Shown piece by piece: positions 5,786 to 22,851 of a stretch of 35,705 bases of DNA. The notes beneath the pieces are model-generated. The model saw nothing but the letters and a program-made list of their open reading frames with translations. It made no database searches and was not told the origin of the DNA. The DNA is from Candidatus Woesearchaeota archaeon. GTDB taxonomy: Archaea > Nanobdellota > Nanobdellia > Woesearchaeales > GW2011-AR4. Made by a program: the position numbers and the translations under genes. Positions within the stretch are counted from its first letter, which is position 1, and the number at the start of each line of letters is the position of its first letter. The stretch is from contig JACPMQ010000032.1 of the NCBI GenBank assembly GCA_016185955.1, positions 1-35,705 on the forward strand, in the 5' to 3' direction.

Positions 5786-5863
5786 AAATCAAAAGAAGCA
5801 TGCCTGATTTTTAAATATTTGTTTATCAAAACATATTTATATGCCTCTTTCGTTGTAAATTAT

Positions 5864-9520: not shown

Positions 9521-9524
9521 AAAA

Positions 9525-10406
9525 TCAACTCCTGAACATGTCTGCAAGCAGCGCAAATGTCAAAAGCTGAAAGCCTATGCTTAATATCAGCACATTGAGC
9601 ATCAACAATGCAATATGTCCTGAAATGCCTGTAGTAAAGTGCAGATAAACCATATAAAATCCGAGCAAAACTCCAATTGAGAATATCAAAAAGCCAATAA
9701 TTCCAAAAAGCCTTAATGGCTTGTAGTCCCTGTAAATTCTTATAATATTAATCCATGCCCTCAATGCATAAGAAAAAGGATTCCTTATTAGCCTGCTTTT
9801 GTCTTTTCGTTTTGCAAAATAGATGGGCACTTCCTTAACTTTAAACTTGTTTTTAACTGCCCTTAAAATTTGCTCTTGAGTGTAAGTATGGTCGGACTTT
9901 ATAGCCACTTTTCTGGCAAAATTGCCTGTAAACGCCCTAAATCCTGTTTGAGCATCAGAAATATCGGTTTCTGCAATCTGGGATACCGCCTTAGAGAAAG
10001 CAATGTTTCCAATACGGTTTATAAAGGGCATATGCTCTATTTTTCCCATAAACCTGCTGCCAAGCACAAGCTCATAGCCATTTTGTATTTCCCTGATTAA
10101 TTTTGGTATTTCCTCTGGCTGATATTGCAAATCAGCATCAATATGGACAATTATATCTGCGCCAAGCTCCAAAGACTTCTCTATTTCTGTCCTAAAAGTT
10201 TCTGCCAGCCCATAATTTTTCGGATGGGAATAAACAACTGCTCCAGCATTTTTTGCTATTTTTGTCGTGCTATCTTTGCTTCCGTCATCAACAACAAGAA
10301 TTTCGTAATTATACTTATTGCTTTTCATTATCTTATGTATTTTATTTATAACTGCACCTATTGTCTTTTCTTCGTTGTATGACGGTATTGTCACTATTAT
10401 TTTCAT
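9525..10406 (-). CDS. family 2 glycosyltransferase, dolichyl-phosphate hexose synthase-like (C-terminal TM helices)
   Basis: IVTIPSYNEE, VVDDGSKDST, HIDADLQY (DXD) and two C-terminal TM helices. ATG 10406 gives an ATGA overlap with the upstream gene. Confidence 0.85.
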   Translation of the reverse strand: MKIIVTIPSYNEEKTIGAVINKIHKIMKSNKYNYEILVVDDGSKDSTTKIAKNAGAVVYSHPKNYGLAETFRTEIEKSLELGADIIVHIDADLQYQPEEIPKLIREIQNGYELVLGSRFMGKIEHMPFINRIGNIAFSKAVSQIAETDISDAQTGFRAFTGNFARKVAIKSDHTYTQEQILRAVKNKFKVKEVPIYFAKRKDKSRLIRNPFSYALRAWINIIRIYRDYKPLRLFGIIGFLIFSIGVLLGFYMVYLHFTTGISGHIALLMLNVLILSIGFQLLTFALLADMFRS

Positions 10407-10969
10407 AAGGCTGTTATTAAACTGCATCTATCGCATTTAATTGCATTTTTAATTTTTCTGGCTTTAAAGCCGCATTTGCAGACATACCCTTTAAGCTTTG
10501 CGGGATTGCCATAAACAAGCGCATAATCCGGAACATCTTTTGTTACTACACTTCCAGCGCCTATCATGGCAAACTTTCCAATTGTTATGCCGCATAATAT
10601 TGTTGAATTTGCTCCCAAAGAAGCTCCGTATTTTATTCTCGTTTTTGCTATTTTCCAATCAGAATAGCCTTTTAATGTTCCATCAGCTTTTATGGCTCTC
10701 GGCATCAAGTCATTAGTAAAACATACATGAGGACCTATAAAAACGCCATCTTCAATTGCAACTCCATGATAGATTGACACATTATTCTGTATTTTCACCT
10801 TATTGCCAATAATAACATTTTCATCTATATAAACATTCTTGCCTATAACGCAGTCATTGCCTATTTTTGCGCCTTTTCTGATATGAGCATTATGCCATAT
10901 TTTGGTGTTAATGCCAATATCATGGCTTTCTATAAAAGCGCTTTTATGAAAAAAACTGTTTTGTTGCAT
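10403..10969 (-). CDS. hexapeptide-repeat sugar N-acetyltransferase (WbpD/WlbB-like) with C-terminal zinc-ribbon tail
   Basis: Left-handed beta-helix repeats (IGNDCVIGKNVYIDENVIIGNKVKIQNNVSI). C-terminal CKCG...CDRC motif. Confidence 0.85.
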   Translation of the reverse strand: MQQNSFFHKSAFIESHDIGINTKIWHNAHIRKGAKIGNDCVIGKNVYIDENVIIGNKVKIQNNVSIYHGVAIEDGVFIGPHVCFTNDLMPRAIKADGTLKGYSDWKIAKTRIKYGASLGANSTILCGITIGKFAMIGAGSVVTKDVPDYALVYGNPAKLKGYVCKCGFKARKIKNAIKCDRCSLITAL

Positions 10970-11006
10970 TATATCAACTCTTTTTATACACTCTTTTTAT
11001 AATTTA

Positions 11007-11021
11007 CGAAAATTTATAAAC
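11007..11021 (+). promoter_or_regulatory. BRE/TATA promoter (cgaaaatttataaac)
   Basis: Matches the motif seen upstream of Hef (26641-26655) and of gene 12899 (rc of 12921-12936). Lies back-to-back with a minus-strand cgtaaattataaaaag element (rc of 10993-11008) that serves gene 10969. Confidence 0.55.
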
Positions 11022-11128
11022 AAATTAATGCCTCATATTTCTGGATGTAAAAATTCCGCCAATTGCTATGATGGTAGTTTTTGACATTTGGCATCGTTTT
11101 GCTTTGGCATAGATCGTCATTGCCAAAA

Positions 11129-11159
11129 CACTAAAAAATCCGAAAACGGATTTTTGGTG
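11129..11159 (+). terminator. hairpin plus T-runs upstream of the GT2 start codon
   Basis: aaaaatccg-aaaa-cggattttt core (9 bp) extendable to cac(t)..ggtg, followed by gttttg. Ends 18 nt before ATG 11177. Confidence 0.45.
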
Positions 11160-11176
11160 TTTTGATTAAAAGAAAA

Positions 11177-11878
11177 ATGGAGTCTCTAACTGTATTAATT
11201 CCAGCACATAACGAAGAAAGGCTTATTGGAAATACTTTGCCGCATATTCTTAATTACTTAAAGTCCCTAAAAGTAGATTTTGAGATTATTGTCTGCATTA
11301 ACAGCAGCACTGATAAAACAGAGCAGATTGTAAGCTCATTCAGCAAGAAAGACAAAAGAGTAAAGTACTTGCTAATAAAAGAAAAAGGCTTCGGAATTGC
11401 CGTCAGAAAAGGGATTAAATCTGCAAAAAAAAATGTAATTGTGTATATGCCTGCTGACAATGAGGTTGATAAAAGCTTTATTGGGATGGCGCTAAAGCAG
11501 ATTAAGGATTATGACGTTGTTTCTGGCTCAAGATACCTCGATAAGGATTATTTGTTAGAAGACTTATTCAGGGACTTTCTGAGCAGGGCTTATGCCAAAA
11601 TAACAAGGGCATTTATTTCAAATAAAATCACTGAGTGTGGAACTGTTAAGATGTATAAAAGCAAATGGGCAAAAGAATTTGTGGAATATTGCACGCGCGA
11701 TGGCTGGGATTTTCAGCTGGAAGAGCTTTATCTTGCATTAAAGCACAAAAAAAAGATTGTTGAGATTCCCATAAAAGTTAATGAGCAAAATGAAAGGCAG
11801 TCAAAAGTCCATGTTGTCAGCACAACACTGTCACTTTTAAAGTCTGTTATGAAATACTGGATAAAGTTAAGAGTTTAG
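11177..11878 (+). CDS. family 2 glycosyltransferase
   Basis: LIPAHNEE and MPADNE (DXD-like). The track start 11162 is TTG. First ATG at 11177 (MESLTVLIPAHNEE). Confidence 0.8.
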   Translation: MESLTVLIPAHNEERLIGNTLPHILNYLKSLKVDFEIIVCINSSTDKTEQIVSSFSKKDKRVKYLLIKEKGFGIAVRKGIKSAKKNVIVYMPADNEVDKSFIGMALKQIKDYDVVSGSRYLDKDYLLEDLFRDFLSRAYAKITRAFISNKITECGTVKMYKSKWAKEFVEYCTRDGWDFQLEELYLALKHKKKIVEIPIKVNEQNERQSKVHVVSTTLSLLKSVMKYWIKLRV

Positions 11879-11879
11879 A

Positions 11880-12899
11880 TTATTCAACAGAAACAGGCTT
11901 CCTTTGTATGCCCGATTCCAACATCAAGAGGGCTATTTCCAATGCTCTTAAGGCTTCCCATGGATTATCCATCAAAGGCTTTTTGTTTTTTCTTACGCAT
12001 TCCATTAAATGCTCAAGCTCAAGTTTCAAAGGCTCTTCTTTTTTGATAGGATACTCTATAATTTTGCCTGAGCTTATGTTTCCAGAAAGAAAAACACTCT
12101 TGTAATAATCCAAGCCATTTGTCATCTGGCCGCTTTCTGAATTTTCATAAAATTTTAAAGTCTGCTCTTGGTAGTTGCCTTCAAGCACGCCCTTTGTGCC
12201 GTAAATATTAATTGTCCTGACTCTCTTTGGAGACACCCAACTGAATTCAGAAGAGCCGTTAATATCGGCTCCAATTTTAAACAGAGACTTGCAATAAATT
12301 GACACTTTCTCAGAAAGTATCAATTGAGAGTATACTTGTTTTATTTCCCCGATAAGGTAACTAATAATATCTATATCATGTATAGCCAAATCTATCAAGA
12401 CACCAACATCTTTTATTCTTTTTGGGTATGGCCCTGCTCTAACGGTATTAACAAGATAAATATCTCCAAGCATGCCTTCATCAATGAATTTTTTTATTTG
12501 CGTCACGACAGGATTAAACCTTTCAATATGCCCTACTACAAGCAATTTTTTATGCTTGTCTGCAGCATCTATCATCTCCTTAGCTTCTGCAACAGTGGCT
12601 GATATTGGCTTTTCGACAAAAACATCTATGCCTTTTTTTATGCAATCTAATGTTATTTGCTTATGCTTGGCTGTCGGCACAGCTATCAAAACAACATCAA
12701 GATTATGCTTGCTTATCATATCCTTATAAGAAATATATTTGTTAGGCACACTGAATGTGTTGGAAACCTTGTCTAAAGTCTCTTTATTGGAATCTGATAT
12801 TGCAACCAGCTTCACATTTTCCATGCCAAGCAGAACTCTTATATGGTTATAGCCCATTACGCCTGCTCCAATGACTCCAACATTTAATGCCCTGCTCAT
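11880..12899 (-). CDS. Gfo/Idh/MocA family NAD-dependent sugar oxidoreductase (WbpB-like)
   Basis: GVIGAGVMG Rossmann motif and FVEKPIS (EKP) motif. Consensus BRE/TATA (rc of 12921-12936) about 27 nt upstream of the ATG. Confidence 0.85.
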   Translation of the reverse strand: MSRALNVGVIGAGVMGYNHIRVLLGMENVKLVAISDSNKETLDKVSNTFSVPNKYISYKDMISKHNLDVVLIAVPTAKHKQITLDCIKKGIDVFVEKPISATVAEAKEMIDAADKHKKLLVVGHIERFNPVVTQIKKFIDEGMLGDIYLVNTVRAGPYPKRIKDVGVLIDLAIHDIDIISYLIGEIKQVYSQLILSEKVSIYCKSLFKIGADINGSSEFSWVSPKRVRTINIYGTKGVLEGNYQEQTLKFYENSESGQMTNGLDYYKSVFLSGNISSGKIIEYPIKKEEPLKLELEHLMECVRKNKKPLMDNPWEALRALEIALLMLESGIQRKPVSVE

Positions 12900-12920
12900 C
12901 CTATTTCAATAAAATGGTGC

Positions 12921-12936
12921 TATTTTTAAATTTTCG
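12921..12936 (-). promoter_or_regulatory. BRE/TATA promoter of the oxidoreductase gene (cgaaaatttaaaaata on the minus strand)
   Basis: About 27 nt upstream of ATG 12899. Confidence 0.55.
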
Positions 12937-12963
12937 TATGGTATCTGCTAACACGCCATAAAA

Positions 12964-13111
12964 GGTTTTTGCGAAAGTCGGTGCTTGTGCGCAATTGCCA
13001 ATTCTGAAAGCTCCGCAGGATTGTGATAAACGACCTGAGCAATGCCGCAGCATTGCGAGGTTGAGAGGAATGTATGGCTCCGCACAAGCACAATTAGATT
13101 TCGCAAAAACC
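12964..13111. repeat. GC-rich palindromic repeat element, copy A (terminal inverted repeats ggtttttgcgaaa..gtgcttgtgcg)
   Basis: Left arm 12964-12991 and right arm 13081-13111 are inverted repeats (13 + 11 perfectly matching nt around a short bulge). The interior contains hairpin gcaatgc-cgca-gcattgc (13039-13056). An outer, weaker inverted repeat pairs 12941-12957 with 13128-13144. Confidence 0.8.
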
Positions 13112-13147
13112 CTGCTTCTCGGACAAAGCCATGTTAGCAGTTACTAT

Positions 13148-13164
13148 GTAAAACTTTATAAATC
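13148..13164 (+). promoter_or_regulatory. BRE/TATA promoter of the epimerase gene (gtaaaactttataaatc)
   Basis: TATA 13155-13163 lies about 23 nt upstream of ATG 13182. Confidence 0.55.
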
Positions 13165-13181
13165 ATGTATTAATTCAATTT

Positions 13182-14090
13182 ATGATGAAAGCTTTTGTCA
13201 CAGGCGGTTCTGGATTTATGGGGCTTTCCCTTGCAAATAAATTGCTTAGCCAAGGGCATAAAGTCAAAATACTGGACTTAAAAGAGCCGGAGATAAAACA
13301 CAAAAACCTTGAGTTTGTCAAAAAATCAGTAGTAAACGAAATAAAAGACGACATTAAAGGTAGCGACATATTATTTCATTTTGCAGCGCTCTTGGGAGTA
13401 GAAAATTCTGATAAAATGCCTTTGGAAACAATGAGAATAAATTTAGAAGGCTCTGTTAATGTGTTTAAATCAGCTATGGAAGCCAATGTTAAGGACATTA
13501 TTTTTTCATCTTCCTCAGAAGTTTATGGAAATCCAAGGGAGCTTCCTATAAAAGAAGATAGCGTTAAAGGTCCCATTTCAACTTACGGAGTTTCAAAGCT
13601 TGCCGCAGAAATTTATGCTAAAGCCTATAATCATGAATGTGGAAGCAGCATAAAGATAGCAAGGTTTTTCAATGTATACGGCCCAAGGCAATCAAATAAT
13701 TTTGTTGTGCCTATATTTATTGATAATGCCCTGCAAAATAAGCCAATTAAGGTTTTTGGCAATGGCTCGCAGACAAGATGCTTTACTTATGTGGATGATG
13801 CAATTGATGGCATCTTTAAAGTAGTTGAAAAAGGAAAAACAGGAGAAGCTTATAATATAGGCAATAATCACCCGACTACTATTTTGCAGCTTGCTGAGAC
13901 AATAAAAGAGCTTGCCAACAGCAAATCAGAGATAATTAAAGTTGATTTCGGCAAGAATACAAGAACAAAGGAAAGAGAAATAGATTACCGCATTCCAGAC
14001 ATATCAAAAATGAATGCTCTTGGTTGGGAGCCAAGAATAAGGATTGTTGAGGGAATAAAAAAAATTCTTGAGTGGAAAAGAAATAATTAA
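13182..14090 (+). CDS. NAD-dependent nucleotide-sugar epimerase/dehydratase (SDR family)
   Basis: VTGGSGFMG, SSSEVYG and YGVSKLAAE (YxxxK). TATA 13155-13163 lies about 23 nt upstream. Confidence 0.88.
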   Translation: MMKAFVTGGSGFMGLSLANKLLSQGHKVKILDLKEPEIKHKNLEFVKKSVVNEIKDDIKGSDILFHFAALLGVENSDKMPLETMRINLEGSVNVFKSAMEANVKDIIFSSSSEVYGNPRELPIKEDSVKGPISTYGVSKLAAEIYAKAYNHECGSSIKIARFFNVYGPRQSNNFVVPIFIDNALQNKPIKVFGNGSQTRCFTYVDDAIDGIFKVVEKGKTGEAYNIGNNHPTTILQLAETIKELANSKSEIIKVDFGKNTRTKEREIDYRIPDISKMNALGWEPRIRIVEGIKKILEWKRNN

Positions 14091-15370
14091 TGCCTTCCAA
14101 TGCCCCTGTAAGTTATGCCTAATGACTTTATCTTCTCTTTGTCCATGCAATTTCTACCGTCAATCACTATTTTTATATTATTTTCCTTAAGGGTTTTTGC
14201 ATCAATGTTTTTGAACATTTTATGCTCAGTTACTAAGATGATATAATCAGACTTTTTTAACAATTCATTCAGACTTGAAACATTTGATTTGGATTTTATG
14301 TAAGGATCAAATATAAAAATTTCTGCGTCCTTGCCTTTTAATATTTCAATTATTCTTAATGCAGGGCTTTCCCTTATGTCATCAACATCTGCCTTGTAAG
14401 CCAATCCAAGAATACCTATCTTTGCATTTTCAATTTTTTTGCCTTTTTTGTCCAGCTCTTCTTCTAAAAGAGACACTGTATAAGAAGGCATGCTCTCATT
14501 TATTTCTCTTGCCAAGGAAAGAAATTTGTGCTCAAAGCCAAGCTGCCTTGCTTTTGATATTAAGTAATATGGATCAATGCTTATGCAATGCCCGCCAACA
14601 CCGGCTCCAGGATAATGAGGCATAAATGCAAAAGGCTTTGTGGAAGCGCCTTTGATTACCTCAATAATATCCACGTTTGCTTTATCAAAGCTTTTTGCCA
14701 TTTCATTTACAAATGCAATATTCACATCTCTGAAAGTGTTTTCCATTATTTTGGTGGCTTCAGCGTCTTTTACGCTTTTTAGCTCGACAATCTGCGCATT
14801 TATTATGCTCCTGTAGAATTCAGCAGCCTTTTTTGCAGCTTCTTTTGTGATTCCGCCAATAACTCTTGGCAAAATGTCTATAGTCCATTTTTTGTTTCCT
14901 GGATCGATTCTTTCAGGGCAATGCGCCACAAAAACATCATTCTTGCAAGCGTCAATTTTATTGTTTTTTAAAATAGGCAGGATTATCTCTTCCACTGTTC
15001 CAGGATAAATTGTTGATTCTATTACAAGAACTGATTTTTTCTTTATTGACTTGGCTATTGATGACGCTGCATCTTTTAATGCAGTTAAATCAGGAGAATT
15101 GTCTTTATTTACAGGAGTAGGCACGCAAACTATAATAAACTCTGAGTTCGGAATGCATTCATTAGCATCTGCTGTCGCATAGATATTATTCTTAAGAGAT
15201 TTTAACTTTTTAATTATATACTCGTCATCAATAGGGCTTTTTTTCTGGTTTATCAGCTCAACTTTGTTTTTATTTGTTTCAAAGCCATATACTTTATATC
15301 CTTTTTCAGCGCACAGGCATGCCAAAGGCAGTCCAACATATCCTAAGCCTACAATTGTGACTGTTTTCAT
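14087..15370 (-). CDS. nucleotide-sugar 6-dehydrogenase (UDP-GlcNAc/UDP-ManNAc dehydrogenase, WbpA/WecC-like)
   Basis: IVGLGYVGLPLA N-terminus and catalytic Cys block GVGGHCISIDP. Typical family length of 427 aa. Confidence 0.9.
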   Translation of the reverse strand: MKTVTIVGLGYVGLPLACLCAEKGYKVYGFETNKNKVELINQKKSPIDDEYIIKKLKSLKNNIYATADANECIPNSEFIIVCVPTPVNKDNSPDLTALKDAASSIAKSIKKKSVLVIESTIYPGTVEEIILPILKNNKIDACKNDVFVAHCPERIDPGNKKWTIDILPRVIGGITKEAAKKAAEFYRSIINAQIVELKSVKDAEATKIMENTFRDVNIAFVNEMAKSFDKANVDIIEVIKGASTKPFAFMPHYPGAGVGGHCISIDPYYLISKARQLGFEHKFLSLAREINESMPSYTVSLLEEELDKKGKKIENAKIGILGLAYKADVDDIRESPALRIIEILKGKDAEIFIFDPYIKSKSNVSSLNELLKKSDYIILVTEHKMFKNIDAKTLKENNIKIVIDGRNCMDKEKIKSLGITYRGIGRH

Positions 15371-15614: not shown

Positions 15615-16094
15615 TTAAACATATAATCTCCTAATTTTATTTATCAGCTGGGTTGTAGAATGCCCCTTAACAAGAGGTATAAGCGCAATTTTGCCTTTAT
15701 TTTTTTCTACAGCATCTTTTTCTATTATCTGGCTTATATTATAATCGCTGCCTTTTGCGTGTATATTGGGCTTGATTATCTCCAGAATTTTTATAGGATT
15801 ATCTTCGCTGAAAATTGTGGCATAATCAATACATTCAAGCGAAGCTAAGGCTTCTGCCCTGTCATTTTCATTGTTTAATGGCCTTTTAGGTCCTTTGATT
15901 TTTTTAACAGAGCTGTCCGAATTTACTGCAACAATTAAGACATCTCCGAGCTTTTTGGCTTCCTGCAAATACCTTATATGGCCTATATGCAAGATGTCAA
16001 AAACGCCATTTGTTGTAACTATTTTTTTATTCTGCTTCTTTAGGTTTTCAACTGTTTTTTTTAGTGCTTCTTTAGTTAAGATTTTTTTGCGCAT
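15615..16094 (-). CDS. cytidylyl/adenylyltransferase-like protein (RfaE domain II / RibL-like)
   Basis: TNGVFDILHIGHIRYL (HxGH nucleotidyltransferase motif) and VAVNSD. Start moved to ATG 16094 (MRKKILTKE) to avoid overlap with the stop of the upstream gene at 16108. Confidence 0.8.
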   Translation of the reverse strand: MRKKILTKEALKKTVENLKKQNKKIVTTNGVFDILHIGHIRYLQEAKKLGDVLIVAVNSDSSVKKIKGPKRPLNNENDRAEALASLECIDYATIFSEDNPIKILEIIKPNIHAKGSDYNISQIIEKDAVEKNKGKIALIPLVKGHSTTQLINKIRRLYV

Positions 16095-16107
16095 TTTAGC
16101 AAAAACC

Positions 16108-17049
16108 CTATATGACAACCTTTAAAACATTTATTTGTTTTAAAATCGTTGATTTATAGCCATACTTTAGTTCGATATTCAGAGGGCTTGTAAAAGTAGG
16201 TATATTTTTAAAATCTTCTTTGTCAAGTGTGCATATTGCAAAGCCCTGCCCGTTAAAAAGCCTTATCTTATTATTCTCAGCATTGCATTTCAGTTCTTGC
16301 TGTCCTAAAGTGACTTTTACAAGCTCCACTTTATCAAAGTCATCTCTTTCAAGCCTTTTGTCTCCATAAGGATTGCATTTTTCCAAAACCTCGCGGTTTA
16401 TTACATCACCATTTCCAGCATTGCTTATGCTTATCTTAAAATGAATCTTATCAGATGAAACCTCCTCGTCAATTCTTGTAACTGCAACAGGCGCTCCTTG
16501 TGAGGTTAGAGTTTTGCTTTCTGCACTGCAAACCTTATTTTTTTCTAATGGGGCTGTATCAACACATACGCTTGCAGCAGCCTTTGTGGCATAAGAATAG
16601 CATAAAGTAGCCATAATATTGGCTTCGTATTTTTCAGCCCTTAATTTTTCCGATAAAATTTTTCCATCAAATTGGATATTATCTAAGCTGCCTTCAGGAT
16701 AAGCAACAAATGCGCTCGGCAATAAAACATCTGCTAAATCCTTTTCCTTCTCAATATCAATAATAGATTTGTCAAAGCCGCTGATGTAAACCTTGCCATC
16801 AATTTTTTGCTCTTCAGTTTCAGGGTAAGCGCCTTTGTTTCTAATTTCCAATATAATATCCACAGGCACGTCTTTTTCTATTGTGTATTTTTCCTGAGGA
16901 TAATCCTTAATAAAATCTATAGTAATCCCTTCTGTCCCCTTTAGCTCTTTGTCGGAAAAACTCTCTTCTTTTATGCAGCCAGAAATTATATTAACGGCAA
17001 AAAGCAGCAACATGACAAAAAAAATCCTTGGTTTTATAAAATCTGCCAT
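16108..17049 (-). CDS. lipobox lipoprotein, paralog of 17050-18015, unknown family
   Basis: Signal peptide ending in ISGC. Shares KGTEG(I/L)T..F, RNKGAY, A.CY.Y.TKA..SVC.D, QGAPVAVT and YGY blocks with the adjacent gene. Confidence 0.65.
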   Translation of the reverse strand: MADFIKPRIFFVMLLLFAVNIISGCIKEESFSDKELKGTEGITIDFIKDYPQEKYTIEKDVPVDIILEIRNKGAYPETEEQKIDGKVYISGFDKSIIDIEKEKDLADVLLPSAFVAYPEGSLDNIQFDGKILSEKLRAEKYEANIMATLCYSYATKAAASVCVDTAPLEKNKVCSAESKTLTSQGAPVAVTRIDEEVSSDKIHFKISISNAGNGDVINREVLEKCNPYGDKRLERDDFDKVELVKVTLGQQELKCNAENNKIRLFNGQGFAICTLDKEDFKNIPTFTSPLNIELKYGYKSTILKQINVLKVVI

Positions 17050-18015
17050 TTAATCAGCCTTTTCTATTATTATCTCTTTTGATGTTGTAAAAGTATACCC
17101 GTAATTGGTATATATGGTTAATGGTGCGGTGAAAGCATCCTCATTTTTGCTTATTCCCTCTTTTGATTTGCATACCATTCTGTTTTCACCCTCTTCTGCA
17201 TTTTCTTTAAGCAGTATTTCTGCATATTCATTTTGCTCCAGCTTATCAGTCTTGCTGCATTCTAATTCGTTTCCTGATAAAGATGCCTTTACAAGAACAG
17301 CACCAAAGTCTCTTGGAGCGAGCGCTTCACTGCTGCACGCATTGCTTATTTTATTAGCCTTTATAATCCTGCCTTCACCTTTATTCTCCATATAAATAAC
17401 AAACTGCGGCCTTATCATTTTTTCATTTTCTTGAGGCAGTATCTTAGTTTCAATTTTTGTCACTGCAACAGGCGCTCCTTGCCCCTCGCTAAATTCAAGC
17501 ACTTTCATTTCACAGGGCTTCTGCCTTCTTGCAGCATTTGGACTGGCATCAATGCAAACAGAAACATCAGCCTTAGTGCTGTAAGGATAGCATGCAGTCG
17601 CTAAAATTGTTGAAGTATGCGTTTCACTTGAGCCTATGTTTTTTGCGCGCGCATTAATTGTTAAATATTCACTATTACCTTCAGGATTTAAAATAGACTT
17701 GCCTTTAATGCTGAATATCTTTTCCTTTTTTGCGCTATCAGCATCCACATACTGGGTTTCAAATCCAAAAAACAATCTGCCATCTGTTATATCATAAGCC
17801 CCTTTGTTTTTTAGGTTTAATCCAACTTCAAAAATATCTTCTTCAAAAACCTTTTCAGGCATAAATTCTAAAAATTCCATAGTTAAGCCTTCTGTGCCTT
17901 TTCTGATTTCAATATCCGTTATGGGATTTGTATTTTGGCTTGATTTGCAGCCAGCCAAAGCTAAGACAAAAATCAGCACAATCCAAACAATTATTTTGTT
18001 GTGCATTTTAGGCAT
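17050..18015 (-). CDS. lipobox lipoprotein, paralog of 16108-17049, unknown family
   Basis: Signal peptide ending in LAGC. GGAG 5 nt upstream of ATG 18015. Conserved blocks as listed for the paralog. Stop abuts the start of the next gene with 0-nt gap. Confidence 0.65.
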   Translation of the reverse strand: MPKMHNKIIVWIVLIFVLALAGCKSSQNTNPITDIEIRKGTEGLTMEFLEFMPEKVFEEDIFEVGLNLKNKGAYDITDGRLFFGFETQYVDADSAKKEKIFSIKGKSILNPEGNSEYLTINARAKNIGSSETHTSTILATACYPYSTKADVSVCIDASPNAARRQKPCEMKVLEFSEGQGAPVAVTKIETKILPQENEKMIRPQFVIYMENKGEGRIIKANKISNACSSEALAPRDFGAVLVKASLSGNELECSKTDKLEQNEYAEILLKENAEEGENRMVCKSKEGISKNEDAFTAPLTIYTNYGYTFTTSKEIIIEKAD

Positions 18016-20467
18016 ATTGCTCCATAATCCCGTCTACTTTATCTACATAGCCCAAATTTCCAGGAGCGCATCCAAAGCCGTTATAAGCCCTCAAAGCCCT
18101 ATCCCAGCCAGTATAGTCCTTATATTGCTGGCAATTTGAATTTGAGACACTCGCTGCGTAATCCACGTCTGCATTAGGACTAATGACGTACTTACTGTAG
18201 TAATCTAATAAAATGCCAATTCCGCTTTTTATATTACAATCTAGATCATAGGCAGTTTCATCTTCCTTGCAGCCATATTTAACAGCACCGCCACGCACAA
18301 ATACCTCTGGATGGGCATTACTATTGCCGTTTATTTGCATCACCCCACAATCCCCGCCAGAATTGCAAAGAACATTGGCTTTATTATTGGTCCCGCAATT
18401 TATGCTCCCATCCCTACAATGATTTAATCCGGATTCATGTTTAGCAATAGCCAAAGATATTGGAATGCATTTTTGCTCTGCAATGCATTTTTGCTCTGCA
18501 ATTTTTCTGACTTTACTTTCAATCTCTCTTTTAACATTCTCGCTTGACTGCACTATCTGCACTGTATTACTGCCACTTGACGTAAACTCCTCATTATCTT
18601 TCTCAACCATCACACTTACAGGCTTCTCAACCCTGTACTCATATCTTGTTTTAACCTTGAAGTATTTTGTTGTTATTTTTGGACCTTTTAAAACTTTAGT
18701 GCTTGGCTGAAATCTGCATTTTACCTCTTCAAACAAGCTTTCTTCAGAAGACCTTTCCCTTCGCTCTTTTAATTTGATAGAATATCCATTGTATTTAGAG
18801 TCACCTTCACTAAAAAGCCTTGCGCATTCTTTTTTTCCTTCGTCAGCTTTATCATCGCATGATTTTATGCAATTATCCAAGCCGGTATTTTTGTAACTAT
18901 TGCATGCTTTCCTGCAAGGCTCTCTTGCAAATTTTTCTATTGAGCCTTCACACTGCGGCATTTCATACTTATCCCAATTGCAGTCGTCAGTGGAGATTAA
19001 GCTTACAGATTCCGGCATTAAAATCACAAGCTCGCTTATTTTTTTTAGCTTTCCCTGCCAACCCTCATTATTTTTCAGCTCTATTGTCATTGACGGCTCT
19101 ATCAGGTAATCATCACTTACTCCTATCAAAAATGTGCCTTCATGCGAGCTGGAAACCCCCATTTCTATCCTTAATGGACCATTGCTAAATGTTGCAATAG
19201 GATTTTTATCATCAATTTTAGAATCCTCAAAAGGGTCTATATTAACATTTGTCATTGACCTTAAAGTTTCCCTATTAATAAGATAAACCTTTTGCTCGGC
19301 TCCTGTCTCAAAATTAAATTCTGCAAAAGCAGTTATTGTGTTAGAGCCGTCTTTTAATTTGTCGCCTAGAAAGGTGCATGTAAAATCCTGCTCTTCCAAT
19401 GAAAATACAGGGAACGGCTTTTCAGGAACAACTTTATAGGCATATTCTTTCTCATTTTTCCTGCTGCCGTCTTTATAGCAGCCAACCTGTATATTAATTG
19501 GATCGCTTAGCGCTTTGGCTTTTACAGTTCCCCATATTATCGCAGGCTCACTGCCGTAATATACAGAATCAGCAGGCTTCACATTTTCAAGATAAACACC
19601 TAAAGGCTCAAACCTGTTTTCTTCAACTTTGCCCGATATTGCGTAATCTATCCGGCTTTGCAATCCAACCCTAACCGAATTTTTAATATTGTTTAATCCT
19701 TTACTAAAATCCCCCCACATATCTTCCAATGTTAGTCCGCTTTTGTCTCTTACCCATTTAAATCCTACTCCCTGGGCTTGAATATCTTTATATGAAAACA
19801 CAAATAATACTATCAAAAGCCCTATAAAAAAGGCAATAGAAAGTGTATTTTGTGTTTTGGTGTAAATATAGAATATGGTAAACACAAAGAAGAATGGGAT
19901 ATAACTGAAAAAAACAAATTTCTTTAGCAAAGCAAATCCAAAAAAGTCTATAAGAATTAAAAGAATCATAGATTTATAAGCTGCAGAAAAACCGTCGTAA
20001 CTTGCTATAAATGTGAATCCAAAAAGCAATATGTATCCAATATGAATAATCGCTTTTATATTGCCCATCCATTGATTGCTGAGGAATAAAAATGACAGCG
20101 TAATGGCAAAAAACATAAAGCTGATGGATTCTTCTCCTAAAAATTCCCAATCACCTCTTCTCAATTTATTAGTGAGATATACAACTATCAGAAAGCCAAA
20201 AAGAGGAAAAGTAACAACTTTACTTATCACGTTCAGAGAACTCCAATTCAAGTTAATAAGATTTGAATCCCATACAAATCCGGTGTATCTTCCACCGAAA
20301 GCATTCATTAAGTCTATTACAAAAATCAGTAAAGCAACCAATAAAAAAATTGTGCCAGTGTCAGAACCAGTTACACCAACTCTGCTTCTTGAGCTAGCAC
20401 TATTATCATATGCTCTCCCTTCAAAGCCAGGCTCCGCAGTTATAGTGCCGCTGTCGCCCATTCCCAT
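18008..20467 (-). CDS. polytopic membrane protein with C-terminal GH23/SLT lytic transglycosylase domain
   Basis: About 7 N-terminal TM helices, a long extracytoplasmic region with a Cys-rich Cx3C segment, then AIAKHES (catalytic E-S), CGVMQIN, NIKSGIGILL, ALRAYNGFG and YVDKV motifs in the order typical of family-1 lytic transglycosylases. Confidence 0.8.
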   Translation of the reverse strand: MGMGDSGTITAEPGFEGRAYDNSASSRSRVGVTGSDTGTIFLLVALLIFVIDLMNAFGGRYTGFVWDSNLINLNWSSLNVISKVVTFPLFGFLIVVYLTNKLRRGDWEFLGEESISFMFFAITLSFLFLSNQWMGNIKAIIHIGYILLFGFTFIASYDGFSAAYKSMILLILIDFFGFALLKKFVFFSYIPFFFVFTIFYIYTKTQNTLSIAFFIGLLIVLFVFSYKDIQAQGVGFKWVRDKSGLTLEDMWGDFSKGLNNIKNSVRVGLQSRIDYAISGKVEENRFEPLGVYLENVKPADSVYYGSEPAIIWGTVKAKALSDPINIQVGCYKDGSRKNEKEYAYKVVPEKPFPVFSLEEQDFTCTFLGDKLKDGSNTITAFAEFNFETGAEQKVYLINRETLRSMTNVNIDPFEDSKIDDKNPIATFSNGPLRIEMGVSSSHEGTFLIGVSDDYLIEPSMTIELKNNEGWQGKLKKISELVILMPESVSLISTDDCNWDKYEMPQCEGSIEKFAREPCRKACNSYKNTGLDNCIKSCDDKADEGKKECARLFSEGDSKYNGYSIKLKERRERSSEESLFEEVKCRFQPSTKVLKGPKITTKYFKVKTRYEYRVEKPVSVMVEKDNEEFTSSGSNTVQIVQSSENVKREIESKVRKIAEQKCIAEQKCIPISLAIAKHESGLNHCRDGSINCGTNNKANVLCNSGGDCGVMQINGNSNAHPEVFVRGGAVKYGCKEDETAYDLDCNIKSGIGILLDYYSKYVISPNADVDYAASVSNSNCQQYKDYTGWDRALRAYNGFGCAPGNLGYVDKVDGIMEQYA
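18465..18500. repeat. perfect 18-bp tandem duplication inside a CDS
   Basis: atgcatttttgctctgca occurs twice (18465-18482 and 18483-18500). It encodes IAEQKC-IAEQKC just N-terminal of the SLT domain. Confidence 0.9.
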
Positions 20468-20523
20468 TTTAATGCTCTCATTGTTTATGAATTTTTACTA
20501 CGCAGAATTCTTTCCAACCATTA

Positions 20524-21675
20524 TTATTTTTCCCTTGATTCTACCCTTATCTCAACAATATCAAGCTTTGTTCTTGGCTTTATCTCAATGAAATTGTTGC
20601 CTTCCTTCACAAAATCATTAATATTTTTTGAAAATATGTTTTTTTCTTGGTCTATTTCTGAAAGCCTGTTGTTTATGCTCAAGTCAGCCCTTTTATTCTG
20701 CCTATCATCCACAAATTCTATTATCAATATTATGTCCTTTGCTTTTTGAGTCCTATTAACTTCAAAGAAATGGACATTTGTTTTTACTTCCTTTTCCCTG
20801 AATTTAAATTCAATTTGCTCAACACTATAGCTTCCTTTGCTCGTTTTAAAAATTACCTTGTTTTCCCCGGCATTTAAAACAGAAACAGGCACCTGCTGCT
20901 CGTATGGGTCATCACAAACAGGCACTCCTAAAAATACCTCTCTATTGTTTACTAAAACCTGTAATCTGCCAACTTCATCAACATTACGGCAATATGGCAC
21001 AAACCTTAATGCAGCGCTTTCTATATTTGCCAATTCTGCTCCAGTTAATGTGAATATATTCCTGCTTTCCTGCTTGCTCCTGTCTGTTATGTCGCCTATA
21101 ATTTTTATGTCTTCTAAGCTATATTCATTTGTTTTCCAGAACTTGTAGCCAACGGAAGAAACGCTAAAAACAAGCGTGTTTTCCTTCATAAGCAGGCTCT
21201 TTTTTAATCTTACCGGCGCAACAGTCTCAGAGTTAATCTCATTTTCATATATAAGCTCATTATTTAGCTTAATTGCTAAGATTCCATCATGCTTTTTGGC
21301 TTTAAAGGATAAAATAACATTATCCGTATTTTCCAAGTCATTCACGTTAAAGCTAACGGATTTCTCTTTTTTGTCAAACCATGCGTTTCTTGCCACTAAT
21401 GGATTGATTTTTTCAATTTCTTGGGCATTAGTCATTTCAAAAAGGAATATGTTTGGAATTGACTTGTCTTCTATGCTTTTAGCAACATCAATCCTGCCAG
21501 GAAATACCTTAAGCAATACATTTTTGTCTTCTTTCTCATCAATAGTTTTTTTTATGCTCTTGTTTTCAAGCAGCATTTCTCTTTCTGTCTCAGGTAGAAA
21601 AAGTATATATAATGCAATCAATCCAGCAATAACCGCAACTAAAACAGCAGCATTAATGCCCTGAGCTTTCCTCAA
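20524..21675 (-). CDS. N-terminally anchored extracytoplasmic protein with three internal repeats, unknown family
   Basis: MRKAQGINAAVLVAVIAGLIALYILFL anchor. Three modules share L.(I/V).(L/V/I)NN(E/R)...(G/E)(E/N)N..(V/I).(F/I)...(Y/L).(L/V/I)E.I..: IKLNNE..KENTLVF..YSLEDIKI, VLVNNRE..GENKVIF..YSVEQIEF and LSINNRL..GNNFIEI..LDIVEIRV. Confidence 0.6.
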   Translation of the reverse strand: MRKAQGINAAVLVAVIAGLIALYILFLPETEREMLLENKSIKKTIDEKEDKNVLLKVFPGRIDVAKSIEDKSIPNIFLFEMTNAQEIEKINPLVARNAWFDKKEKSVSFNVNDLENTDNVILSFKAKKHDGILAIKLNNELIYENEINSETVAPVRLKKSLLMKENTLVFSVSSVGYKFWKTNEYSLEDIKIIGDITDRSKQESRNIFTLTGAELANIESAALRFVPYCRNVDEVGRLQVLVNNREVFLGVPVCDDPYEQQVPVSVLNAGENKVIFKTSKGSYSVEQIEFKFREKEVKTNVHFFEVNRTQKAKDIILIIEFVDDRQNKRADLSINNRLSEIDQEKNIFSKNINDFVKEGNNFIEIKPRTKLDIVEIRVESREK

Positions 21676-21768: not shown

Positions 21769-22851
21769 ATGAAAATTATACACCAAGATTTTAAAAAAGG
21801 CGAAGTTAAGGTAAAAGTTGACAATCTCGATGATTTGTGGTATTTAAGCAGCATAGTGGAAAAAAATGATTTTATCAAAGGCAAAACCCTAAGAAAAATA
21901 AAGTTTGGGGATGAAACCCAAAGAAACCAAAAATCAGTAAAAAAGGCGCTTTTTCTTCTTATTCAGGCAGAAAGGGTTGAATTCAGCAAATTTTCAAACG
22001 AGCTTAGGATATCTGGAATAGTGAAACAAGGAACAGAAGATGTGCCTTTAGGCTCTTACCACACTTTTAATGTCGAAGAAAACTCAGTTATCACGATAAT
22101 CAAGCAAAAATGGCTTAAATTCCAATTAGACAAATTAAAGGACGCCAGCAGTAAAGCAGATTCAAAAATTTTAATCTGCGTGCATGACAGGGAAGAGGCA
22201 TATTTTGCGCTGATTAAAAAATATGGCTACGAGCTTCTTTCGCATATCAAAGGCAATGTGGCAAAAAAGGCAGATATTAAAAAATTTGAAGCCACTTTTT
22301 ACAGAGATGCAGCAAAACAATTAAAAGAGTACAATTCAAGATATAAGCTAAACAAAATCATAATTGCAAGCCCGGCATTTTGGAAAGAAGAGCTGCTTAA
22401 AGAAATAGATGAAGAAATAAAAAATAAAATAATAATTGCAACGTGCTCTTCAGTGACTGAAAATGCCATTAATGAAGTGCTCAAAAGGCCAGAGACAGAA
22501 AAAGCATTAAAGCAGGACAGGATTGCAAAAGAATACAGGCATGTTGAAAGGCTTTTTGTAGAAATATCCAAGAATAATCTTGCTTGTTATGGATTGGAAG
22601 AAACAAAAAATGCAGCCATGTCAGGAGCTGTAAGCTTATTGCTGATAACTGATAATTTTATACAGAAAAAAAGAATTGAGAATCAATATAGCCCAATAGA
22701 GGAAATAATGAAAGCTGTTGATAACTCTAATGGAGATATAGCAATAATAAGTTCAGAGCATGAGGCAGGGAAAAAATTAGATGGCTTAGGAGGAATTGCA
22801 GCTATATTGAGGTTCAAGTTTAATACAACCTACAAATTTTCTGCCAATTGA
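21769..22851 (+). CDS. pelA: Pelota (aRF1-related mRNA surveillance factor)
   Basis: MKII...GEVKVKVDNLDDLWYLSSIV N-terminal domain and length typical of archaeal Pelota. TATA-like box about 30 nt upstream. Confidence 0.9.
   Translation: MKIIHQDFKKGEVKVKVDNLDDLWYLSSIVEKNDFIKGKTLRKIKFGDETQRNQKSVKKALFLLIQAERVEFSKFSNELRISGIVKQGTEDVPLGSYHTFNVEENSVITIIKQKWLKFQLDKLKDASSKADSKILICVHDREEAYFALIKKYGYELLSHIKGNVAKKADIKKFEATFYRDAAKQLKEYNSRYKLNKIIIASPAFWKEELLKEIDEEIKNKIIIATCSSVTENAINEVLKRPETEKALKQDRIAKEYRHVERLFVEISKNNLACYGLEETKNAAMSGAVSLLLITDNFIQKKRIENQYSPIEEIMKAVDNSNGDIAIISSEHEAGKKLDGLGGIAAILRFKFNTTYKFSAN

What the first reader, a model, noticed from the sequence alone, without database searches (positions are those of the whole stretch)
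18011..18460. Complete family-1 lytic transglycosylase motif set, with a Cys-rich insertion, at the C-terminus of a 7-TM protein
Reading the minus strand gives four motifs in canonical order and spacing. AIAKHES has the catalytic Glu codon at 18434-18436 followed by Ser. CGVMQIN lies at 18331-18346. NIKSGIGILL follows. ALRAYNGFG lies at 18077-18097 and is followed by YVDKV. The stretch between the E-S and GVMQ motifs is longer than in Slt70-like enzymes and carries several Cys (CRDGSINC...LCNSGGDC), suggesting disulfide stabilisation outside the cell. An odd number of TM helices after a Ser/Gly-rich cytoplasmic N-terminus places this domain outside. I do not know of this fusion of a polytopic anchor to an SLT domain in characterised enzymes.
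Basis: partly seen in the sequence, partly recalled or inferred. Interest (0 to 1): 0.7.

Follow-up and report, generated by a model that had tools for sequence, protein, structure and literature searches.

The report
Membrane-anchored cell-wall-cutting enzyme in a DPANN archaeon
A tiny, probably symbiotic archaeon (Woesearchaeota type) carries a real, apparently intact bacterial-cell-wall-cutting (lytic transglycosylase/lysozyme-fold) module on the outer tip of a seven-helix membrane protein; such enzymes were already reported in these archaea, but here the module turns out to be one of several interchangeable tips on a conserved surface protein of unknown function.

Summary
ORF 18008-20467 (minus strand, 819 aa) ends in a module with E-S, G-V-M-Q, N-I-K-S-G and A-Y-N-G motifs and a Cys-rich insert.

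Pfam SLT is just under threshold for this protein: 14.6 bits for the whole protein and 20.9 for the module, against a cutoff of 21.3. Stronger evidence supports the assignment:
- 20 of 25 homologous modules hit PF01464.
- The family profile hits solved MltC, Slt70 and EtgA.
- An AlphaFold model (pLDDT 95) matches only GH23 enzymes.
- The catalytic-position Glu is kept in 97 of 98 relatives.

An outside location is supported by seven predicted helices, positive-inside charge bias, and Cys that lie almost only after the membrane region.

The organism is a DPANN archaeon, and a roughly 340-residue beta-sandwich ectodomain separates the anchor from the enzyme. The SLT module is a swappable tip, replaced elsewhere by FN3, beta/gamma-crystallin, a Cys-rich module or nothing. 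The gene sits in a strictly syntenic cluster of unknown function.

Murein-transglycosylase proteins in Woesearchaeota are already published, so this is a new architectural variant of a known kind. The likely role is tethered cleavage of a bacterial partner's peptidoglycan; that role is inferred, not shown.

The parts
18008..20467 (-). 819-aa ORF: cytoplasmic tail, 7 TM helices, stalk helix, beta-sandwich ectodomain, linker, SLT/GH23 module
   Evidence: ORF list. About 50 of the top 150 module relatives share the polytopic N-terminus plus the middle domain. Whole-protein model has mean pLDDT 80.
20360..20467 (-). N-terminal Ser/Gly-rich, basic cytoplasmic tail (aa 1-36)
   Evidence: pLDDT is below 50. 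Across the family the tail averages 12.4 K+R, which fits a cytoplasmic location.
19775..20359 (-). Seven transmembrane helices (aa 37-231), with invariant or near-invariant D52, H142 and D174 inside helices
   Evidence: Hydropathy. Model helices at 37-53, 78-103, 112-129, 137-158, 160-181, 185-205 and 208-231. Modal count of 7 across the family by a crude Kyte-Doolittle scan. Conserved D52/H142/D174.
19637..19729 (-). Long helix after TM7 (aa 247-277), ending at the start of the highly conserved YAI(T/S)GKVEEN..EPLGV motif (aa 275-291); possible stalk
   Evidence: Model secondary structure. Invariant columns 275-291.
18602..19600 (-). Conserved beta-rich ectodomain ('MID', aa 290-622), the family-defining part
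   Evidence: Strongest conservation in the alignments. pLDDT is mostly 85-95. Foldseek finds only generic tandem Ig-like ectodomains: integrin alpha legs, complement MG domains, adhesins and pilins. No Pfam or NCBIfam hit.
18812..18961 (-). Helical hairpin (aa 503-552) carrying six conserved Cys (C506, C518, C522, C533, C537, C548), probably disulfide-stapled
   Evidence: Model helices 503-522 and 528-552. These Cys are at least 90% conserved.
18548..18592 (-). Low-confidence linker (aa 626-640) between the ectodomain and the tip module
   Evidence: pLDDT below 50 for 626-640. Family alignments diverge from here on.
18011..18544 (-). SLT / GH23 lysozyme-fold module (aa 642-819)
   Evidence: Module model has pLDDT 95.3 and pTM 0.91. 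Top PDB fold matches are MltC, Slt, MltF and g-type lysozymes. Top viral matches are phage LT_GEWL/SLT virion proteins. Profile hits to MltC, Slt70 and EtgA. Pfam SLT scores 20.9 bits, E=2.7e-4.
18434..18436 (-). Codon GAA for Glu678, the predicted catalytic acid (E-S motif)
   Evidence: Glu is present in 97 of 98 modules, followed by Ser or Thr in 94 of 98. It aligns with the ES of MltC.
18347..18418 (-). Cys-rich insertion between E-S and G-x-M-Q (aa 684-707; C684, C691, C701, C707)
   Evidence: About 15 residues longer than MltC. C684 is kept in 84, C691 in 75 and C701 in 72 of 98 modules. The insertion is a hallmark of the whole module subfamily.
18464..18499 (-). Perfect 18-bp tandem duplication (GCAGAGCAAAAATGCATT x2) encoding AEQKCI twice at the start of the module. 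It adds two Cys (C661, C667) not seen in relatives.
   Evidence: Column counts: the C661 column is a gap in 94 of 98 sequences, and the C667 position is usually Pro.
20524..21675 (-). Upstream co-directional gene: 383-aa single-TM protein, syntenic partner
   Evidence: Present immediately upstream in every locus whose upstream flank is held, at 59-67% identity in the full-length matches. No Pfam, NCBIfam, PADLOC or PDB hit.
17050..18015 (-). Downstream gene dn321: secreted, lipobox-like (LAGC) 321-aa protein. Its start overlaps the stop of the 819-aa ORF by 8 bp.
   Evidence: Paralogue of dn313 (hhalign 7.9e-51).
16108..17049 (-). Downstream gene dn313: paralogue of dn321 with an ISGC lipobox-like signal

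Best explanation
The gene encodes a surface protein of a Woesearchaeota-type (DPANN) archaeon. It has a short basic tail in the cytoplasm and seven membrane helices. Outside the cell it has a stalk helix and a disulfide-rich tandem beta-sandwich ectodomain. A flexible linker then leads to a distal GH23/SLT-fold muramidase module with an intact catalytic Glu.

Shown here:
- the fold
- the motif conservation
- the outside topology (by indirect evidence)
- the archaeal host
- the modular, swappable nature of the tip
- the strict synteny with three other envelope proteins

Inferred:
- The module is catalytically active. It would cleave the MurNAc-GlcNAc bond of peptidoglycan as family-1 lytic transglycosylases do, with Glu678 as the single acid/base and a 1,6-anhydro-MurNAc product.
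- Archaea of this group have no murein, so the substrate would be the wall of a bacterial partner or prey.
- Cutting would happen locally at the contact site, because the enzyme is tethered to the archaeal membrane rather than secreted.
- The conserved 7-TM plus beta-sandwich core is a lineage-wide envelope component. Lineages equip its tip with different contact modules: an enzyme (SLT) or binders (FN3, beta/gamma-crystallin).

Confidence by step: about 0.9 that this is a genuine extracytoplasmic GH23-fold module with catalytic residues intact, and about 0.5-0.6 that its job is cleavage of a bacterial partner's peptidoglycan.
For: SLT/GH23 identity:
- Pfam SLT hit in 20 of 25 modules, best 5.7e-13; the window module scores 20.9 bits.
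- Profile against PDB: MltC 9e-5 and 4e-4, Slt70 0.016, EtgA 0.039.
- The module model has pLDDT 95.3. Its 23 best PDB matches are all GH23, with probability up to 0.99 and TM about 0.5. Viral matches are phage LT_GEWL/SLT proteins.

Catalytic integrity in 98 modules: E678 97/98, S/T679 94/98, G708 98/98, Q711 92/98, N745 98/98, Y795 97/98, G797 98/98.

Outside location:
- Seven helices.
- K+R of about 16.5 in the tail plus even loops, against 1.7 in odd loops.
- 39 Cys in 17,769 residues before the ectodomain against 1,233 in 37,157 after it, with almost always even counts.

Archaeal/DPANN host:
- Nop56/58, Pelota, Hef, fused PriS-PriL and L3/L4 in the window.
- Relatives lie in Woesearchaeota and Nanoarchaeota MAGs.

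Modularity: tips are SLT, fn3, beta/gamma-crystallin, Cys-rich or absent in 16 genomes.

Synteny.

The literature interprets Woesearchaeota/Pacearchaeota SLT proteins the same way (PMC8204110, PMC9723730).
Against: - No activity, substrate or host is known.
- The Pfam score for this protein alone is below the gathering threshold.
- Structural similarity to solved enzymes is moderate: TM about 0.5 and Foldseek E between 0.05 and 0.5.
- GH23 also contains hydrolytic g-type lysozymes, and (from general knowledge) some chitin-active members, so both chemistry and substrate are open.
- A Gram-negative partner's outer membrane would shield its peptidoglycan from a tethered enzyme.
- Family members with no tip at all (L014, L015) show the enzyme is dispensable for the core function.
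- TM counts come from a crude hydropathy scan and AlphaFold, not a dedicated topology predictor.
Confidence: 0.6

Rival explanations
1. The module is a hydrolytic lysozyme (goose-type-like muramidase) rather than a lytic transglycosylase. The target is the same (peptidoglycan), but the reaction uses water and makes no anhydro-muropeptide.
For: G-type lysozymes (3gxk, 1gbs) are among the fold matches, with TM about 0.47. Phage 'LT_GEWL' proteins top the viral list. An acidic residue (D686, in the HC-x-D-G context) follows the catalytic Glu in many short-insert members.
Against: The best sequence and fold matches are lytic transglycosylases: MltC, Slt and MltF. The motif set E-S / G-x-M-Q / A-Y-N-x-G is the family-1 lytic transglycosylase signature (general knowledge: Blackburn and Clarke classification). 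D686 is not conserved in the long-insert (HCC) members.
Confidence: 0.15
2. The module does not attack bacterial murein. It either binds or remodels another glycan (the archaeon's own envelope or S-layer glycans, chitin-like polymers, or pseudomurein of a methanogen host), or it serves mainly as an adhesion module like the FN3 and crystallin tips.
For: The alternative tips are binding-type domains: fn3 and beta/gamma-crystallin. The cluster lies next to a cell-surface glycan biosynthesis region containing GT4, GT2, a polysaccharide deacetylase, a UDP-sugar dehydrogenase and an epimerase. No host is known.
Against: Near-perfect conservation of the catalytic Glu and of the substrate-cleft motifs across 98 diverged modules argues for retained catalysis of the family's canonical reaction. 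All detectable relatives with known function act on murein.
Confidence: 0.2
3. The match is spurious (chance motifs), or the gene is bacterial contamination or a recent bacterial or phage transfer in an archaeal bin.
For: The Pfam hit on the whole protein is below threshold. A single-sequence PDB search finds nothing relevant.
Against: Convergent profile, family and structure evidence. Archaeal marker genes flank the gene on both sides of the same contig. The same gene sits in the same syntenic cluster in 16 Woesearchaeota/Nanoarchaeota-type MAGs. No relatives were found in phage, plasmid or viral collections.
Confidence: 0.02

Closest known systems
Family-1 lytic transglycosylases of bacteria (GH23, Pfam SLT PF01464): MltC, Slt70, MltF
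   Same: Lysozyme-like helical fold. The E-S, G-x-M-Q and A-Y-N-x-G/Y motifs occur in the same order. Both are extracytoplasmic.
   Different: The host is archaeal. There is a 15-residue Cys-rich insert after the catalytic Glu, and 6-8 conserved Cys overall. Sequence similarity is only marginal (E 1e-4 to 1e-2 with a profile). The module is anchored through a 7-TM domain plus a beta-sandwich stalk. From general knowledge, the bacterial enzymes are lipoproteins, soluble periplasmic proteins or single-pass proteins.
[quoted passage not shown] 2021, fam00969, PMC8204110; Vigneron et al. 2022, GH23, PMC9723730)
   Same: Same lineage, same domain type, and the same proposed role (binding or degrading bacterial walls). 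The Cys-rich module also occurs in 1,000-3,000-aa single-TM proteins in archaeal contexts.
   Different: Those reports describe very large, secreted or single-anchor proteins. Neither the passages retrieved from those two papers nor four full-text searches mention a 7-TM anchor, the conserved beta-sandwich core, the swappable tip or the syntenic cluster. Whether fam00969 includes this architecture could not be checked.
Specialised lytic transglycosylases of envelope-spanning machines and virions (EtgA of T3SS, VirB1-type, PRD1 P7, phage tape-measure or tail lysins)
   Same: EtgA is a profile hit. Phage virion SLT proteins, including PRD1 transglycosylase and a tape-measure protein, are the best viral fold matches. 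The concept is the same: a locally acting, tethered enzyme that opens a wall at one spot.
   Different: No secretion-system, pilus or virion genes are detectable in the cluster. Here the wall to be opened would belong to another organism.

Membership tests
Pfam SLT (PF01464) / CAZy GH23, family-1 lytic transglycosylase | Significant match to the family HMM | tested here: inconclusive
   The window protein scores 14.6 bits whole and 20.9 bits for the module, against a gathering score of 21.3. However, 20 of 25 homologous modules match, best E=5.7e-13, and the window module is 30-51% identical to them.
Pfam SLT (PF01464) / CAZy GH23, family-1 lytic transglycosylase | Catalytic Glu in an E-S motif at the end of the first core helix | tested here: met
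   E678-S679. Glu is present in 97 of 98 modules and Ser or Thr in 94 of 98. It aligns with the ES of MltC.
Pfam SLT (PF01464) / CAZy GH23, family-1 lytic transglycosylase | G-L/V/I-M-Q motif and A-Y-N-x-G plus trailing Tyr, in canonical order | tested here: met
   Counts out of 98 modules: G708 98, M710 86, Q711 92, Y795 97, N796 90, G797 98, Y807 75 (plus 13 Phe).
Pfam SLT (PF01464) / CAZy GH23, family-1 lytic transglycosylase | Lysozyme-like alpha-helical fold | tested here: met
   The model has pLDDT 95.3. The 23 best PDB matches are all GH23, with probability 0.54-0.99 and query-normalised TM 0.46-0.54.
Pfam SLT (PF01464) / CAZy GH23, family-1 lytic transglycosylase | Non-hydrolytic cleavage giving 1,6-anhydro-MurNAc | not testable with these tools
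   This needs enzymology. GH23 also holds hydrolytic g-type lysozymes, which also appear among the fold matches.
Pfam SLT (PF01464) / CAZy GH23, family-1 lytic transglycosylase | Extracytoplasmic location | tested here: met
   The evidence is indirect: seven helices, positive-inside bias, and Cys restricted to the post-TM part with even counts. No dedicated topology predictor was available.
DPANN large extracellular murein-like transglycosylase proteins (Castelle 2021, fam00969) | Encoded by Woesearchaeota/Pacearchaeota-type archaea and carrying an SLT domain | tested here: met
   Archaeal markers in the window. Relatives lie in Woesearchaeota/Nanoarchaeota MAGs.
DPANN large extracellular murein-like transglycosylase proteins (Castelle 2021, fam00969) | Membership of that protein cluster as defined by the authors | not testable with these tools
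   The supplementary family table is not held as searchable text.
Specialised lytic transglycosylases of secretion systems or pili (EtgA/VirB1 type) | Encoded within a recognisable secretion-system or pilus gene cluster | tested here: not met
   The neighbours have no Pfam, NCBIfam, PADLOC or PDB sequence match. The cluster consists of lineage-specific envelope proteins.

The most novel reading that the evidence does not exclude
The 7-TM/beta-sandwich protein would not be a mere anchor. It would be the core of a Woesearchaeota/Nanoarchaeota-wide envelope apparatus, together with the highly conserved 383-aa partner and the lipoprotein-like paralogues, and it has invariant intramembrane Asp/His/Asp residues. 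Its interchangeable distal tip (SLT enzyme, FN3, beta/gamma-crystallin, Cys-rich module or none) would determine which partner cell is engaged. In that reading the SLT-tipped version is the wall-breaching end of a host-attachment or feeding device of archaeal episymbionts of bacteria, and the tip repertoire is a readable marker of host type.
Probability: 0.2. Interest if true: 0.8.

Novelty: new variant of a known kind. Interest (0 to 1): 0.45.

Why it matters
How DPANN archaea attach to and exploit partners is largely unknown, and whether some have bacterial rather than archaeal hosts is an open question. A membrane-tethered muramidase with intact catalytic residues in an organism without murein is direct, testable genomic evidence for interaction with bacteria.

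The new element here is the context. The enzyme is one of several plug-in tips on a conserved polytopic surface protein, which lies in a strictly syntenic, lineage-wide gene cluster of unknown function. That gives a concrete candidate for a cell-contact apparatus and a simple comparative handle (tip type against co-occurring hosts). The small (about 170 aa), confidently modelled module is also an easy target for expression and activity assays.

Tried and rejected
- Single-sequence search of the module against PDB found nothing relevant.
- Word-indexed homologue searches with the module alone and with the module profile returned only 1 and 5 proteins. The exhaustive HMMER search was needed.
- The exact-sequence contig look-up for the window protein found nothing on record.
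- Context look-ups for P0030 and P0012 landed on contigs too short to inform.
With the 5-sequence alignment it found no relatives.
- tblastn against annotated phages and plasmids gave no match. There is therefore no support for recent transfer from mobile elements, but a proper phylogeny for ancient bacterial origin could not be built because no bacterial sequence set is reachable from the script environment.
- NCBIfam, PADLOC and PDB sequence searches of the four cluster proteins gave nothing.
- BLASTP and hhalign of the middle domain against the neighbouring proteins showed no relationship, so the idea that all cluster proteins are paralogous beta-sandwich modules is not supported at sequence level.
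- Foldseek on the whole model gave only generic Ig-like ectodomain matches with very low TM, so no specific function can be assigned to the middle domain. The 7-TM part could not be searched separately.
- Model coordinates are not exposed, so disulfide pairing and active-site geometry could not be inspected.
- Castelle et al.'s family table could not be searched.


Full report
**1. What is in the sequence**

The finding lies at the 3' end of an 819-aa ORF on the minus strand, 18008-20467.

| Motif | Residues | Window coordinates |
|---|---|---|
| AIAKHES | 673-679 | 18431-18451 |
| CGVMQIN | 707-713 | 18329-18349 |
| NIKSGIGILL | 745-754 | 18206-18235 |
| ALRAYNGFG | 791-799 | 18071-18097 |
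| YVDKV | 807-811 | 18035-18049 |

The Glu678 codon is GAA at 18434-18436. The protein has 20 Cys, all after residue 330.

**2. Host and context**

The window is archaeal and low in GC (about 35%). It encodes Nop56/58, a Pelota/aRF1-like protein, a Hef-type helicase-nuclease, a fused small/large primase subunit and ribosomal proteins L3 and L4. From general knowledge, the fused primase is typical of DPANN archaea.

Relatives of the whole protein occur in 16 species-representative MAGs. Most are labelled Candidatus Woesearchaeota or Nanoarchaeota; five bins carry the label 'uncultured Methanosarcinales' and one only 'archaeon'. The best is 42% identical. The exact protein is not in the public collection.

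**3. Is the C-terminal module an SLT/GH23 domain?**

For this protein alone the Pfam evidence is marginal. The whole protein scores 14.6 bits (E=0.025) and the isolated module 20.9 bits (E=2.7e-4), against a gathering score of 21.3. A single-sequence search of PDB finds nothing relevant. The family context settles the question.

- An exhaustive HMMER search with a five-sequence profile found 302 cluster representatives at E<=1e-3 and 103 at E<=1e-10.
- Of 25 diverse modules, 20 hit PF01464, best 5.7e-13.
- A 25-sequence profile hits solved lytic transglycosylases: MltC at 9e-5 and 4e-4, Slt70 at 0.016 and EtgA at 0.039.
- An AlphaFold2 model of the module is very confident, with mean pLDDT 95.3 and pTM 0.91.
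- Its 23 best PDB matches are all GH23 enzymes: MltC, Slt, MltF and goose-type lysozymes. Probability reaches 0.99 and query-normalised TM is 0.46-0.54.
- Against predicted viral structures, the best matches are phage virion-associated LT_GEWL/SLT proteins, including the PRD1 transglycosylase.

Conservation in a 98-sequence module alignment:

| Residue | Conserved in (of 98) |
|---|---|
| Glu678 (catalytic position) | 97 |
| Ser/Thr679 | 94 |
| G708 | 98 |
| Q711 | 92 |
| N745 | 98 |
| Y795 | 97 |
| G797 | 98 |

The domain is therefore a genuine but divergent member of the SLT/GH23 fold with the catalytic apparatus intact.

**4. The Cys-rich insertion**

The profile alignment to MltC opens a 15-residue gap right after the E-S motif. 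Glu to the Gly of G-x-M-Q is 30 residues here and 15 in MltC. The insertion is a hallmark of the whole subfamily. It comes in a short form (HC...C...C) and a long form (HCC...C...C...C).

Conserved Cys, out of 98 modules: C684 84, C691 75, C701 72, C733 98, C744 86, C779 96, C800 92.

Two further Cys in the window protein (C661, C667) come from a perfect 18-bp tandem duplication at 18464-18499. It encodes AEQKCI twice and is absent from relatives.

**5. Topology**

- Hydropathy and the whole-protein model give seven helices: 37-53, 78-103, 112-129, 137-158, 160-181, 185-205 and 208-231. The whole-protein model has mean pLDDT 80.
- Seven is also the modal count across complete family members in a crude scan.
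- Across 33 members, the N-terminal tail and even-numbered loops hold on average about 16.5 Lys+Arg, and the odd-numbered loops hold 1.7. By the positive-inside rule this indicates N-in and C-out.
- Independently, the family has 39 Cys in 17,769 residues before the ectodomain and 1,233 in 37,157 residues after it. Nearly all complete proteins have an even number after it. That pattern is expected for disulfide-bonded extracellular domains.

No dedicated topology predictor was available, so the outside location is well supported but indirect.

**6.

The SLT module is not directly attached to the anchor.

- After TM7 comes a long helix (247-277) that ends at the start of the most conserved motif of the family, YAI(T/S)GKVEEN..EPLGV (aa 275-291).
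- Next is a beta-rich domain (290-622) that contains a helical hairpin (503-552) with six conserved Cys.
- A low-confidence linker (626-640) precedes the module.
- Foldseek on the whole model gives only generic tandem Ig-like ectodomains: integrin alpha legs, complement MG domains, and Gram-positive adhesins and pilins. The middle part therefore looks like a stalk or adhesin-type scaffold.
- Three polar residues inside membrane helices are invariant or nearly so: D52, H142 and D174. This hints that the 7-TM part does more than anchoring. It remains unexplained.

**7. The module is a swappable tip**

In the first nine homologues, only three besides the window protein carry SLT. Four carry what look like FN3-type ends, three of which reach Pfam fn3. 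In the 16 representative genomes the region after the conserved core varies.

| Tip type | Loci |
|---|---|
| SLT | L002, L004, L008 (followed by an FN3-like repeat), L009 |
| Divergent lysozyme-like variant | L006 |
| FN3-like | L001, L005, L007, L011, L012, L013, L016 |
| Cys-rich | L003 |
| Beta/gamma-crystallin | L010 |
| Absent (7 or 22 residues) | L015, L014 |

L017 runs off its contig before the tip.

Conversely, the same Cys-rich SLT module appears in other architectures. These include single-TM proteins of 400-3,000 aa, some with beta-helix or esterase domains. The three whose contigs were informative lie in archaeal contexts with TFIIB, S8e, LSM, RadA and RPA. About 50 of the top 150 module representatives have the polytopic N-terminus plus middle domain.

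**8. Gene neighbourhood**

Wherever the flanks are held, the locus has the same order:
- Pelota, divergently transcribed.
- A 383-aa single-TM protein, 59-67% identical in full-length matches. That is nearly as conserved as Pelota at 64-75%.
- The 7-TM protein.
- A dn321-like gene and a dn313-like gene, sometimes with further paralogues.

In the window these genes are tightly packed. The ORF's stop overlaps the next start by 8 bp. dn321 and dn313 are paralogues with lipobox-like LAGC and ISGC signals. None of these proteins has a Pfam, NCBIfam, PADLOC or PDB sequence match. Profile-profile comparison shows no relation to the middle domain. The function of the cluster is unknown; a lineage-specific envelope complex is a reasonable guess.

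**9. Mechanism proposed**

Shown:
- an extracytoplasmic GH23-fold module with catalytic residues intact
- tethering by a polytopic protein through a stalk and a flexible linker
- an archaeon as host
- a modular tip

Inferred:
- Glu678 acts as the single acid/base, as in family-1 lytic transglycosylases, cleaving MurNAc-beta-1,4-GlcNAc bonds.
- These archaea lack murein, so the substrate is a bacterial partner's wall, cut locally at a contact site.

This agrees with the published interpretation of SLT proteins in Woesearchaeota and Pacearchaeota (PMC8204110; PMC9723730; mentioned in PMC12352652).

Alternatives that cannot be excluded are hydrolytic lysozyme chemistry, a different glycan substrate, or a mainly adhesive role. 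The tip-less family members show that the enzyme is accessory to the core protein's function.

**10. Comparison and novelty**

The enzyme module works like, and on present evidence belongs to, the SLT/GH23 superfamily. It is a distinct, Cys-rich subfamily seen only in archaeal contexts wherever context could be read. No close relatives were found in phage, plasmid or viral collections.

The presence of murein transglycosylase domains in Woesearchaeota and Pacearchaeota has been published since 2013-2015 and was generalised in 2021-2022. The headline observation is therefore not new.

As far as the accessible literature shows, the following are new:
- the 7-TM plus beta-sandwich carrier
- the interchangeable-tip organisation
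- the strict synteny with three other envelope proteins

I rate this a new variant of a known kind, with moderate interest. Whether the authors' family fam00969 already contains this architecture could not be checked.

Noticed in passing
window 18464-18499 (minus strand): Perfect 18-bp tandem duplication (GCAGAGCAAAAATGCATT x2) encoding AEQKCI twice at the N-terminal edge of the SLT module. It adds two Cys that relatives lack, so the total Cys count stays even.
   Followed up: yes
window 16108-21675 (minus strand) and 21769-22851 (plus strand); loci L001-L017: Strictly syntenic Woesearchaeota/Nanoarchaeota cluster: Pelota divergent from a 383-aa single-TM protein (59-67% identical in full-length matches), then the 7-TM protein, then two to six paralogous lipobox-like proteins of about 320-350 aa. 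None has any database annotation.
   Followed up: partly
window about 19946-20314 (aa 52, 142, 174 of the 819-aa protein): Invariant or near-invariant Asp52, His142 and Asp174 lie inside predicted membrane helices 1, 4 and 5. This suggests the 7-TM domain has a function of its own (channel, relay or metal site) beyond anchoring.
   Followed up: no
window 31872-33212 (plus strand): A single 446-aa ORF matches both the DNA primase small-subunit and large-subunit Pfam families, i.e. a fused PriS-PriL primase. This is consistent with a DPANN-type archaeon.
   Followed up: no
window 5819-15370: Cell-surface glycan biosynthesis region next to the cluster: GT4, polysaccharide deacetylase, GT2, Gfo/Idh/MocA oxidoreductase, NAD-dependent epimerase and UDP-sugar dehydrogenase. 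A cytidylyltransferase follows at 15615-16118.
   Followed up: no
L010 about 9950-11000; L006 about 9975-10520; L003 about 9800-10345: Alternative tips on the same core protein: a beta/gamma-crystallin repeat module (L010, Pfam 2.6e-8), a divergent lysozyme-like module with ESRWD...GLFQFN (L006), and a very Cys-rich module (L003).
   Followed up: partly
L021 177-10123: A 983-aa single-TM protein carrying the same SLT module is the last gene of a run of 13 small co-directional ORFs without any Pfam hit. RPA and RadA follow it. The run could be an integrated element or an unknown surface-structure cluster.
   Followed up: no
L020 1-6326; L022 6375-15341: Other architectures with this module: a 1,820-aa protein with an esterase domain and five internal TM helices, next to an AliA_AliB (archaeal lipoprotein biogenesis) family gene; and a 2,988-aa protein with NosD/beta-helix repeats.
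   Followed up: no
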